Source of the DNA: Octopus vulgaris | Lineage: Eukaryota | Length of the DNA: 64,000 nucleotides | Direction of reading: 5' to 3' | Assembly: GCA_951406725.2 (NCBI GenBank) | Contig: OX597835.1 | Coordinates: 15,066,001 to 15,130,000, forward strand | Shown: positions 8,040 to 33,925 of the stretch, in pieces | Layout: the number at the start of each line of letters is the position of its first letter | Position numbering within the stretch: position 1 is the first letter of the stretch | Notes under the pieces: generated by a model | Seen by the model: only the letters and a program-made list of their open reading frames with translations | The model's database searches: none | What the model was told of the DNA's origin: nothing | Program-made: the position numbers and the translations under genes

Positions 8040-8262
8040 TATACAATAATATGTTACTTTACTCGGTAGTCAAGATAAAACTCTGAGTTTTCAAATAGCC
8101 AGATAACCGAAGAGATGGTGTTGTGGATTTCCACTTCGGCATCTGAAACTCAGAGTTTTATCTTGACTACCGAGTAAAGTAACATATTATTGTATAGATA
8201 AATTTCCTCTATTTACATAATATTGAGGTCTCTTTCTTTCTTTTGTTATCTTACCGTTTTAT

Positions 8263-8265
<3 letters not shown>
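8040..8265 (+). mobile_element. fold-back Penelope-like element in (TA)n
   Basis: About 51-bp perfect inverted repeat (8040-8090 / 8146-8196), a one-sided 3' extension, TA tracts on both sides. Confidence 0.7.
8101..8163 (+). ncRNA. type I hammerhead ribozyme variant
   Basis: AGATAA CCGAAGA GATG...CATC T GAAA CTC A GAG T T TTATCT; stems I-III present, U4C core variant. Confidence 0.6.
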
Positions 8266-8310
<45 letters not shown>

Positions 8311-8571
8311 CCTTCACCTTCGAAATGTAGAGTAGATGAAACCATGGCGACTGAAGAAGGGGGGGGTTTTTTGTGTTAATTGTCCTGTACTCTATATATT
8401 TTTTGTTGTTAAAAAAATGTCCAGTTCCCTGGGTTTGTGTCTATGTTTTCGTTTCTCATTGTGTTCGACGTTTTTTTTTTTTTTGTGTCATGTACTCATA
8501 TATGCGTGTATATATACATATAGAGGTTGGTACGTACATATATGTTTATATATATGCATATGTTTTATTTA

Positions 8572-15881: not shown

Positions 15882-16480
15882 TAAGGGTACAGGTGTGTGT
15901 ATATATATATGTGTATATACATATGTGTATACACACATATGTATGTCTGTGTAAATGCATATATATGTATACACACACACATATATATATATACATATAT
16001 ATGCATTTACACAGACATACATATGTTTGTATACACATATATATATATACACACCAGTACTCTTATACATACCTACCTAACTACCTGCCAACCATCTACA
16101 TATATATATACACACACACACACATATATGTATGTATTCACGTAGTATATATGTATTATAAACGTACATGCATGCATTTACACATACACACAGGCAAGCA
16201 CGGCCACATATACATACATGCCTACATACATATACACACAAGCATACACGTGCACGCATCCATACCTGCGTATATGTCTATATAATTATGCTAACGTTTA
16301 TAAATACACGTTGCTCCGCAGATGTATAATGACACTTAATAACACTAATTGTTTGTGTTTAGAATTTTACATGGATTACGAAAATATATATGTAAGTAGG
16401 TGTTTATATATATGTATGTGTATGTGTGTGTGTGTGTGTGTGTGTCTGTCTGTCTGTCTAAATATATATATATATATATA

Positions 16481-16770
16481 TATAAGAAAAAAGGTTTGAA
16501 AATGCAATTTAAACGATGTTTATTTACTTAACCGGTTTCACTCTTTAGTAAAAGATTGTCAAAAGTTACATTTAAGGAAACATTGAATAATATGGGTTCA
16601 AACCATATTTTTTGAACCCATATTATTCAATGTTTCCTTAAATGTAACTTTTGACAATCTTTTACCAAAGAGTGAAACCGGTTAAGTAAATAAACATCGT
16701 TTAAATTGCATTTTCAAACCTTTTTTCTTATATAATCCCACTCGTGCGATACCCCACAACTCAACTTTTT
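16481..16770 (+). mobile_element. fold-back Penelope-like element in (TA)n
   Basis: 122-bp arms (16481-16602 / 16611-16732, one mismatch seen), 38-nt one-sided extension, TA flanks. Confidence 0.75.
16647..16687 (+). ncRNA. minimal type I hammerhead, U3-A8 variant
   Basis: ACTT TTGACAA TCTTT-TACC-AAAGA GT GAAA CCGG T T AAGT; palindromic stem III; mirror copy on the minus strand in the left arm. Confidence 0.6.
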
Positions 16771-16787
16771 TATATATATATATATAT

Positions 16788-17130
16788 ATCAACAATCAAG
16801 GAACGGCCATAATAGGCCATTCACCCACTAGAAATAACAGCCAAAGCTTCAACTGCAAATAAAAATTAATTCCGTAAACCAGGAGAAAATTTAAAAAATT
16901 TTAAAAAATTTTAAAAAATTTAAAAAAATTTAAAAAATTTAAAAATTTAAAAATTTTATTTGCGGTTGAAGCTTTGGCTGTTATTTCTAGTGGGTGAATG
17001 GCCTATTATGGCCGTTCCTTGATTGTTGATGTTGAACTTAAAAATGGTCTATGACTATTTAATTTTTTCCCACTAGGCCGCTGGTGGCAGAAGAATTCTA
17101 CAAAATTTTTTTTTTGCCACCCTATATTGA

Positions 17131-33655: not shown

Positions 33656-33761
33656 CTGTATGTGTGTGTGTGTAGAAGGATGAAAAGGAACACATGAGTT
33701 GATATATATGGAAAAAAAAGTCAAGATGGAAAATGCTAAAATAATTTTATAAAAAACATTT

Positions 33762-33798
33762 CAGTACCGGTTTCGGTCATTTGAGACCTTTTCAACTG
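33762..33798 (-). ncRNA. minimal type I hammerhead, U3-A8 variant, in a ~200-bp Penelope-like insert (33673-33870)
   Basis: CAG TTGAAAA GGTC-TCAAAT-GACC GAAA CCGG T A CTG. Confidence 0.7.
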
Positions 33799-33867
33799 TA
33801 ACAATTAAACAATTAAATTTAGAAAAATTAAAAGAAAAGGGTTTTTAAAAGAATATTTGTTTAGTGT

Positions 33868-33925
<58 letters not shown>

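What the first reader, a model, noticed from the sequence alone, without database searches (positions are those of the whole stretch)
16481..16770. Palindromic element carrying U3-A8 hammerheads on both strands
Seen: core TTGACAA instead of CTGANGA, stem II TCTTT/AAAGA, GAAA, palindromic ACCGGT stem III, stem I ACTT/AAGT; the 122-bp fold-back places a copy on each strand. Established: C3-G8 is a tertiary Watson-Crick pair in the hammerhead core and U3-A8 is a tolerated compensatory variant that standard descriptors miss. Inference: a non-canonical ribozyme lineage, supported by the independent copy at 33762.
Basis: partly seen in the sequence, partly recalled or inferred. Interest (0 to 1): 0.7.

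Follow-up and report, generated by a model that had tools for sequence, protein, structure and literature searches.

The report
Penelope retrotransposon stub with variant hammerheads
The palindrome is two mirror-image copies of the tail end of a young, abundant Penelope-type jumping gene; each copy carries a small hammerhead RNA motif predicted to cut itself, with two unusual core features that are each already published, and the mirror arrangement is likely a by-product of insertion that would keep this copy from folding into a ribozyme.

Summary
The fold-back (123 of 124 bases) and the U3-A8 hammerhead motif on each strand are real. They are not a separate ribozyme lineage. The right arm plus a 38-nt tail is the 3' pseudo-LTR of a young Penelope-like retrotransposon (40 of 40 scored genome hits 100% identical; a full-length copy encodes RT and a GIY-YIG-type nuclease). 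The left arm is the tail-less inverted copy typical of such insertions, set in (TA)n. With the same stem III, U3-A8 cores outnumber C3-G8, U3-G8 and C3-A8 cores genome-wide (9,101 vs 325, 215, 314). Three families 57-68% alike in RT keep U3-A8 while stems and palindrome covary, which suggests selection. U3-A8 in Penelope hammerheads is published (PMC4209133). The 33762 motif belongs to a related family. In any read-through RNA the hairpin (about -187 kcal/mol) would bury the motif. Cleavage is untested. Side result: a conserved U_UUU_UUA site likely drives a -1 frameshift into the RT. The scan has noted both this kind of stub and the frameshift before on other DNA of this genome.

The parts
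16461..16484 (.). (TA)n target microsatellite on the left flank (its last bases overlap the end of the inverted arm)
   Evidence: sequence
16479..16602 (-). Inverted, 5'-truncated, tail-less copy of the element's 3' pseudo-LTR
   Evidence: 123/124 match to right arm; matches L031 pLTRs in reverse; ends at the same point as the inverted copies in 4 of 30 other loci
16526..16566 (-). Minimal type I hammerhead motif, U3-A8, U10.1·U11.1, one C-to-U change in loop II; predicted cleavage after 16530
   Evidence: cleavage site inferred from hammerhead numbering
16603..16607 (.). 5-nt filler at the inversion junction (resembles element sequence a few bases downstream; likely a template-switch scar)
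   Evidence: right arm aligns to L031 from 16608; origin of filler is inference
16608..16772 (+). Direct 3' end of the Penelope-like element (family A): last ~165 nt of the pseudo-LTR including the tail
   Evidence: 99.5-100% to both pLTRs of full-length copy L031; 40 of 40 scored genome hits 100% identical over 16612-16735
16647..16687 (+). Minimal type I hammerhead motif: stem I 16647-50/16684-87, core 16651-57 (U3, A8), stem II 16658-73, G12-A14 16674-76, palindromic stem III 16677-82, N17 = U 16683; predicted cleavage after 16683
   Evidence: activity untested
16735..16772 (+). 38-nt one-sided tail of the insertion, followed by (TA)n
   Evidence: present after the arm in 30 of 30 loci, each followed by (TA)n; matches the 30-40-bp tail of PMC8557442
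33762..33798 (-). U3-A8 minimal hammerhead motif (G10.1-C11.1, N17 = A) in a ~200-nt 3' stub (about 33671-33878) of related Penelope family G1
   Evidence: 87-90% identical to L065 and L067, which encode an RT 58% identical to family A

Best explanation
The 16479-16772 segment is a short insertion made of two mirror-image copies of the 3' end of a young Penelope-like retrotransposon, and the mirror arrangement likely arose during target-primed reverse transcription at a (TA)n site. Shown: the arms are the element's pseudo-LTR; full-length copies carry ORF1, an RT/GIY-YIG ORF and this motif in both pseudo-LTRs; the tail lies on one side only. Inferred: in tandem full-length transcripts two same-sense motifs pair through the palindromic stem III and slowly self-cleave after U17, cutting unit-length RNA, as proposed for Penelope minimal hammerheads. 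U3-A8 keeps the 3-8 tertiary pair; U10.1·U11.1 weakens the base of stem II. Inferred for this copy: on either strand the antisense arm is transcribed first and pairs with the sense arm over 123 bp, so it is likely catalytically silent.
For:: 40 of 40 scored candidates (of 920) 100% identical over 124 nt. L031 has pLTR-ORF1 (447 aa)-ORF2 (758 aa; RVT_1 E 5.7e-08)-microsatellite-rich 3' region-pLTR-(TA)n. alignment: DKG, a CX4CX2C linker and a GIY-YIG-like segment in all three families; 4 of 30 loci hold an inverted copy within 1.5 kb, all 4 ending at the same base as the window's left arm, without tail; 30 of 30 have (TA)n after the tail. PMC8557442 (passages) describes inverted 5'-truncated copies, one-sided 30-40-bp tails and (TA)n targets. 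Selection on the motif: families A, G1 and G2 (ORF2 identities 57.7, 57.1, 68.0%) all keep U3-A8 with different stems I and II, and G2 has the palindrome changed on both sides. Palindromic stem III forms number 9,101 + 2,864 against 719 non-palindromic single-change forms (reversed controls 99, 219, 250; 719 and 250 by subtraction); fold-back -186.9 (+) and -196.8 (-) kcal/mol against -14.3 for one arm; hammerhead monomer models only -0.5 to -1.0; stem III region self-duplex -10.7.
Against: No cleavage data. Genome counts are copy numbers of a few amplified families, not independent events. The motif is A/U-rich and doubly weakened, and N17 = U could pair with A14 (the 8-bp duplex includes that pair), so it may cleave poorly or not at all; PMC4209133 reports low activity even for dimers of a PLE minimal hammerhead. 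The C3-A8 mismatch occurs in a tandem repeat family (L081, 3 of 3 units), so the 3-8 pair is not strictly required for spread. Only 4 of 30 loci show an inverted copy, but only 1.5 kb of flank was examined. Clade assignment rests on motifs, not on a tree.
Confidence: 0.88

Rival explanations
1. One reading: a distinct non-canonical ribozyme element whose palindrome purposely places an active U3-A8 hammerhead on each strand.
For: Both strands carry an intact motif; U3-A8 is in large genome-wide excess.
Against: The arm is the end of a protein-coding Penelope element. Inverted copies have different truncation points and spacings (L009 adjacent, L008/L010/L011 about 800-930 nt away). The 123-bp hairpin would sequester the motif. 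U3-A8 is published for Penelope hammerheads.
Confidence: 0.04
2. The insertion is as described, but in this lineage the motif is no longer a catalyst: the hammerhead-shaped, dimerising fold is kept as a structural signal (RT binding, RNA dimerisation or priming).
For: Two weakening features together (U3-A8, U10.1·U11.1), marginal folding energy, two near-equal stem II registers, a C3-A8 tandem family, and Naiad PLEs that spread without canonical hammerheads (PMC8557442 passages). PMC4209133 does not rule out other functions.
Against: All catalytic-core positions, the N17 = H rule and the 3-8 pair are kept across families 57-68% alike in RT. Both variants are reported as compatible with activity (PMC3088659 passages).
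Confidence: 0.25
3. A MITE (non-autonomous DNA transposon with long terminal inverted repeats and a TA target), or a miRNA-like hairpin.
For: Long near-perfect inverted repeat in (TA)n; sub-threshold Rfam miRNA-hairpin matches (best 72.6 bits against a gathering score of 130).
Against: The arm occurs mostly as a single direct copy at the 3' end of an RT-encoding element, with a one-sided tail. The Rfam matches are generic hairpin hits, all below gathering.
Confidence: 0.02

Closest known systems
Minimal type I hammerheads (min-HHR) of metazoan Penelope-like elements, U3-A8 variant of Schistosoma mansoni Cercyon (Cervera & de la Pena 2014, PMC4209133; parts 1-2 of 4 read, 2 supplement files searched, file 1 not searchable)
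   Same: Type I topology, short stem I, palindromic stem III needing a dimer, position in both pseudo-LTRs, U3-A8 core, many solo or opposite-strand copies 100-700 bp apart.
   Different: Here U3-A8 is the majority (28-fold over C3-G8 for this stem III) whereas in S. mansoni it was ~1,300 vs ~2,000; no unpaired base at 9.1; U10.1·U11.1 replaces the 'highly conserved' G10.1-C11.1; stem III is a 6-nt palindrome. 'Octopus' does not occur in the searched supplement.
Natural hammerhead core variants (Perreault et al. 2011, PMC3088659; passages read)
   Same: Reports natural U3-A8 covariation and, separately, stem II starting with a U10.1-U11.1 mismatch, the best tolerated mispair.
   Different: The passages I read do not show the two in one molecule, nor in a retrotransposon family of ~2,577 copies.
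EN+ Penelope-like elements of the Neptune/Nematis type (Craig et al. 2021, PMC8557442; passages and a supplement term search)
   Same: C-terminal GIY-YIG-type EN, DKG, CX2-5CxxC linker, 3' hammerhead, partial tandems, inverted 5'-truncated copy, one-sided 30-40-bp tail, (TA)n target.
   Different: Canonical EN+ PLEs are described as single-ORF; here ORF1 and RT-EN are out of frame with a conserved U_UUU_UUA. The Fig. 1 legend allows an ORF1 separated by a frameshift with a pseudoknot, but I could not see which clade is meant, and no strong stimulatory fold was found here.
Non-LTR retrozymes (PMC7229834, listing only; bioRxiv 10.64898/2026.07.22.740005, part 1 of 5 read)
   Same: Type I hammerheads with palindromic stem III, related to PLE pseudo-LTRs.
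   Different: Retrozymes are tandem non-coding monomers; this stub is the end of a coding element and is not tandem.

Membership tests
PLE minimal type I hammerhead | Core Y3-U-G-A-N-R8-A ... G12-A-A-A15.1, U16.1, H17 with a Watson-Crick 3-8 pair | tested here: met
   U3-A8, N17 = U
PLE minimal type I hammerhead | Palindromic positions 15-16 and loop III | tested here: met
   6-nt palindrome; double-sided change in family G2; palindromic forms 11,965 vs 719
PLE minimal type I hammerhead | Stem II adjoining the core, supported by covariation | tested here: met
PLE minimal type I hammerhead | G10.1-C11.1 and an unpaired base at 9.1 (consensus tendencies in PMC4209133, not part of the catalytic core) | tested here: not met
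   U·U at 10.1-11.1 and no extra base; G-C is present in the 33762 family; U·U is a known tolerated natural variant
PLE minimal type I hammerhead | Located in the pseudo-LTRs of a PLE | tested here: met
   Both pLTRs of L031 and of G2 copy L113
PLE minimal type I hammerhead | Self-cleavage as a dimer | not testable with these tools
   No raw RNA reads offered; needs an in vitro assay
EN+ Penelope-like element (parent) | RT domain followed by C-terminal GIY-YIG endonuclease | tested here: met
   RVT_1 E 5.7e-08; the GIY-YIG-like segment is read from the alignment, Pfam gave no GIY-YIG hit
EN+ Penelope-like element (parent) | Pseudo-LTRs from partial tandems, inverted 5'-truncated copy, one-sided tail | tested here: met
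Neptune clade | CX2-5CxxC linker before the EN, and (TA)n target | tested here: met
   CX4CX2C in 3 of 3 families; (TA)n after the tail in 30 of 30 loci. The linker is shared with Nematis.
Neptune clade | RT phylogeny groups with Neptune references | not tested
   No reference RT sequences were in hand
Neptune clade | Single ORF (as stated for canonical EN+ PLEs) | tested here: not met
   Two ORFs out of frame in three families; hence 'Neptune-type', not filed as Neptune

The most novel reading that the evidence does not exclude
An actively transposing Penelope lineage has kept, under selection and in about 2,600 copies, a hammerhead with two weakening features at once (U3-A8 and U10.1·U11.1), tuned as a slow, dimer-only cutter, and U3-A8 has displaced the canonical C3-G8 core as the norm in this genome's Penelope elements. 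The same elements make their RT by a -1 frameshift at a slippery site without an evident pseudoknot.
Probability: 0.35. Interest if true: 0.45.

Novelty: new member of a known kind. Interest (0 to 1): 0.22.

Why it matters
The locus itself is an ordinary retrotransposon stub. The family is of modest use: descriptors and Rfam models built on C3-G8 and G10.1-C11.1 miss over 10,000 such motifs in this genome, and a young family with intact ORFs gives matched natural constructs (U·U versus G-C at 10.1-11.1, two palindromes) for testing whether Penelope hammerheads must cleave at all, a question the 2014 and 2021 papers leave open.

Tried and rejected
Rfam e-value scans of the window and of the element gave only microsatellite- or hairpin-driven miRNA matches and one sub-threshold HH9 hit; a gathering scan of five loci gave none. 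The repeat finder on the whole window was swamped by microsatellites. Sequencing runs: no RNA holder listed on record; contigs of four runs guessed to be RNA were laid on the element but contigs cannot show ends, so nothing was learned about cleavage or expression; a 286-nt skip in three of the four runs had non-intron ends and replaced letters and was taken as another subfamily, not splicing. A search for longer proteins containing ORF1 (fused forms) found none at E <= 0.001, which is weak evidence. No strong stimulatory structure was found 3' of the slippery sites (-2.5 to -6.5 kcal/mol over 70 nt; pseudoknots not modelled). G3-C8 with this stem III: 72 matches against 71 control, though many rows are one family. 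Lunse et al. 2017 (title seen in a reference list) and Arkhipova et al. 2017 were not held, so I saw nothing of them; either may already describe the U3-A8 plus U·U combination or the frameshift. Literature searches for the combination and for a Neptune frameshift and for octopus Penelope hammerheads found no direct description; this covers only the held library. MITE and miRNA readings were rejected (see rivals).

Full report
Observation. The window is microsatellite-rich animal DNA from a 2.8-Gb assembly; that it is an octopus is recalled from the repeat landscape and echoed in earlier AI notes, not tested. Arms 16479-16602 and 16611-16734 are reverse complements at 123 of 124 positions around an 8-nt loop; the mismatch (16547/16666) lies in loop II of the motif. 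Each arm carries a type I hammerhead-like motif: 4-bp stem I, U3-U-G-A-C-A8-A9, a 16-nt stem II region, G12-A-A, a 6-nt palindrome as stem III, and N17 = U. A third U3-A8 motif lies at 33762-33798 on the minus strand. Rfam does not see them: the best hammerhead match is HH9 at 11.6 bits, E 5.5.

What the arm is. A search of the genome with the right arm gave 920 candidates; 40 of 40 scored were 100% identical over 124 nt. In 30 of 30 loci fetched, the arm is followed by the same ~38-nt tail and then (TA)n; in 2 of 30 the sequence runs on into an ORF, the partial-tandem layout of Penelope-like elements. Locus L031 holds a full-length copy: pseudo-LTR, ORF1 of 447 aa, ORF2 of 758 aa, a microsatellite-rich 3' region, a second pseudo-LTR and (TA)n. 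ORF2 matches RVT_1 (E 5.7e-08) and shows DKG, a CX4CX2C linker and a GIY-YIG-like segment (read from the alignment; Pfam gave no GIY-YIG hit). These are the Neptune/Nematis features of PMC8557442 (passages). Window 16608-16789 is 99.5% identical to the 3' pseudo-LTR of L031 and its (TA)n flank.

Why it folds back. PMC8557442 describes an inverted 5'-truncated copy next to the 5' end and a 30-40-bp tail present at one end only. The window shows exactly this: the left arm stops where the tail would begin. Of 30 loci, 4 hold an inverted copy within 1.5 kb, and all 4 stop at that same base, but their truncation points and spacings differ. Hand-picked opposite-strand pairs from other families also show the tail on one side only. 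The palindrome is therefore best read as a per-insertion product. On either strand the antisense arm is made first and can pair with the sense arm over 123 bp: -186.9 and -196.8 kcal/mol, against -14.3 for one arm and -0.5 to -1.0 for constrained hammerhead monomers. Each strand has only one sense motif, so the same-sense partner needed for the dimer is also missing. This copy is likely silent as a ribozyme (inference).

With stem III fixed, whole-genome counts (both strands; reversed-pattern control in brackets) are U3-A8 9,101 (99), C3-G8 325 (40), U3-G8 215 (46), C3-A8 314 (48), G3-C8 72 (71). The excess is real, but these are copy numbers of a few families and cover one stem III only. Better evidence of selection comes from divergence. 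Three families whose ORF2 proteins are 57.7, 57.1 and 68.0% identical all keep U3-A8 while stems I and II differ, and one has the stem III palindrome changed on both sides. That second palindrome has 2,864 matches (219 control); the two non-palindromic single-change forms total 719 (250 control), by subtraction. Against strict necessity: a tandem repeat family carries C3-A8 in 3 of 3 units seen (L081). The 33762 stub is 87-90% identical to family G1 loci, so it is a relative, not an independent origin.

Stem II. Pairing from the ends gives U10.1·U11.1, C-G, U-A, U·G, U-A, U-A and a 4-nt loop. Among the first 100 rows of the unforced search (counted by eye), 30 begin stem II with U-C; all 30 end it with U and 27 with G-U. 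The clade has 2,577 matches (0 control).

Prior art. PMC4209133 (parts 1-2 of 4 read) reports minimal hammerheads in Penelope pseudo-LTRs, palindromic stem III, low dimer activity, dual motifs on opposite strands 100-700 bp apart, and about 1,300 U3-A8 motifs in S. mansoni. PMC3088659 (passages) reports natural U3-A8 and, separately, U10.1-U11.1. PMC6765202 (passages) reviews the dimer model. I did not find the two variants together, or an octopus case, but Lunse et al. 2017 was not held and supplement file 1 of PMC4209133 could not be searched; either may bear on this. Earlier scan notes on other DNA of this genome reached the same reading; none matched this family by sequence. They are unchecked AI notes and are not counted as support.

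Side result. ORF2 lies in the -1 frame of ORF1, is open only 54 nt upstream of its ATG, and that window holds U_UUU_UUA in the ORF1 frame. The heptamer is in the same phase in 26 of 33 family A rows and 20 of 22 rows of families G1 and G2 (rows include a few duplicates of one genomic copy and were top-scoring hits); the other rows have a shorter U run, and 7 of the 26 have the ORF1 frame broken just upstream. In 7 of 7 G1 rows ORF2 has no methionine from the upstream stop through its first 25 aligned codons. A programmed -1 frameshift is likely but untested. No strong downstream fold was found. The Fig. 1 legend of PMC8557442 already allows a frameshift-separated ORF1 in some PLE type, and three earlier scan notes describe the same feature.

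Mechanism and verdict. Shown: identity of the arms, insertion anatomy, conservation and covariation of the motif. Inferred: inversion during target-primed reverse transcription at (TA)n; slow dimer self-cleavage after U17 in tandem full-length transcripts; silence of this copy. Confidence is 0.88 for the insertion model; I put the chance that the family's motif cleaves at about 0.7. A new member of a known kind; interest 0.22.

Noticed in passing
L031:4093-4153; L116 ~2450-2560; L113 ~2426-2510: ORF1 and RT-EN ORF2 are out of frame, with U_UUU_UUA in the same phase in three Penelope families 57-68% alike; family G1 lacks a methionine at the ORF2 start. Likely -1 ribosomal frameshift; no strong stimulatory fold.
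   Followed up: partly
window 16788-17130: A second, unrelated fold-back directly beside the finding: stub of a young ~492-nt repeat family (735 candidates, 40 scored, 99% identical) found in tandem and mirror arrays in (TA)n; no hammerhead with a palindromic stem III was found in one locus, L136.
   Followed up: partly
L080 (G000:C1:20001800-20005000): Canonical C3-G8 type I hammerhead in ~359-nt tandem and inverted repeats, retrozyme-like.
   Followed up: no
L081 (G000:C4:80856700-80858500): Sister 360-nt tandem repeat with a mismatched C3-A8 core in 3 of 3 units.
   Followed up: no
genome-wide: A small family with a G3-C8 core and the same stem III makes up many of the 72 matches, although the total equals the control.
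   Followed up: no
L031:2410-2620 and 8230-8440: The pseudo-LTR holds a short internal tandem array (~45-nt units) upstream of the hammerhead, varying in unit number between copies.
   Followed up: no
L031:6570-7880: The element's 3' region contains ~1.3 kb of degenerate (TG/TA)n microsatellite, so this family may spread microsatellites as well as target them; whether the tract is shared by other copies was not checked.
   Followed up: no
window 15919-16042: Imperfect microsatellite-derived hairpin of ~124 nt upstream of the finding (sub-threshold miRNA-model match).
   Followed up: no
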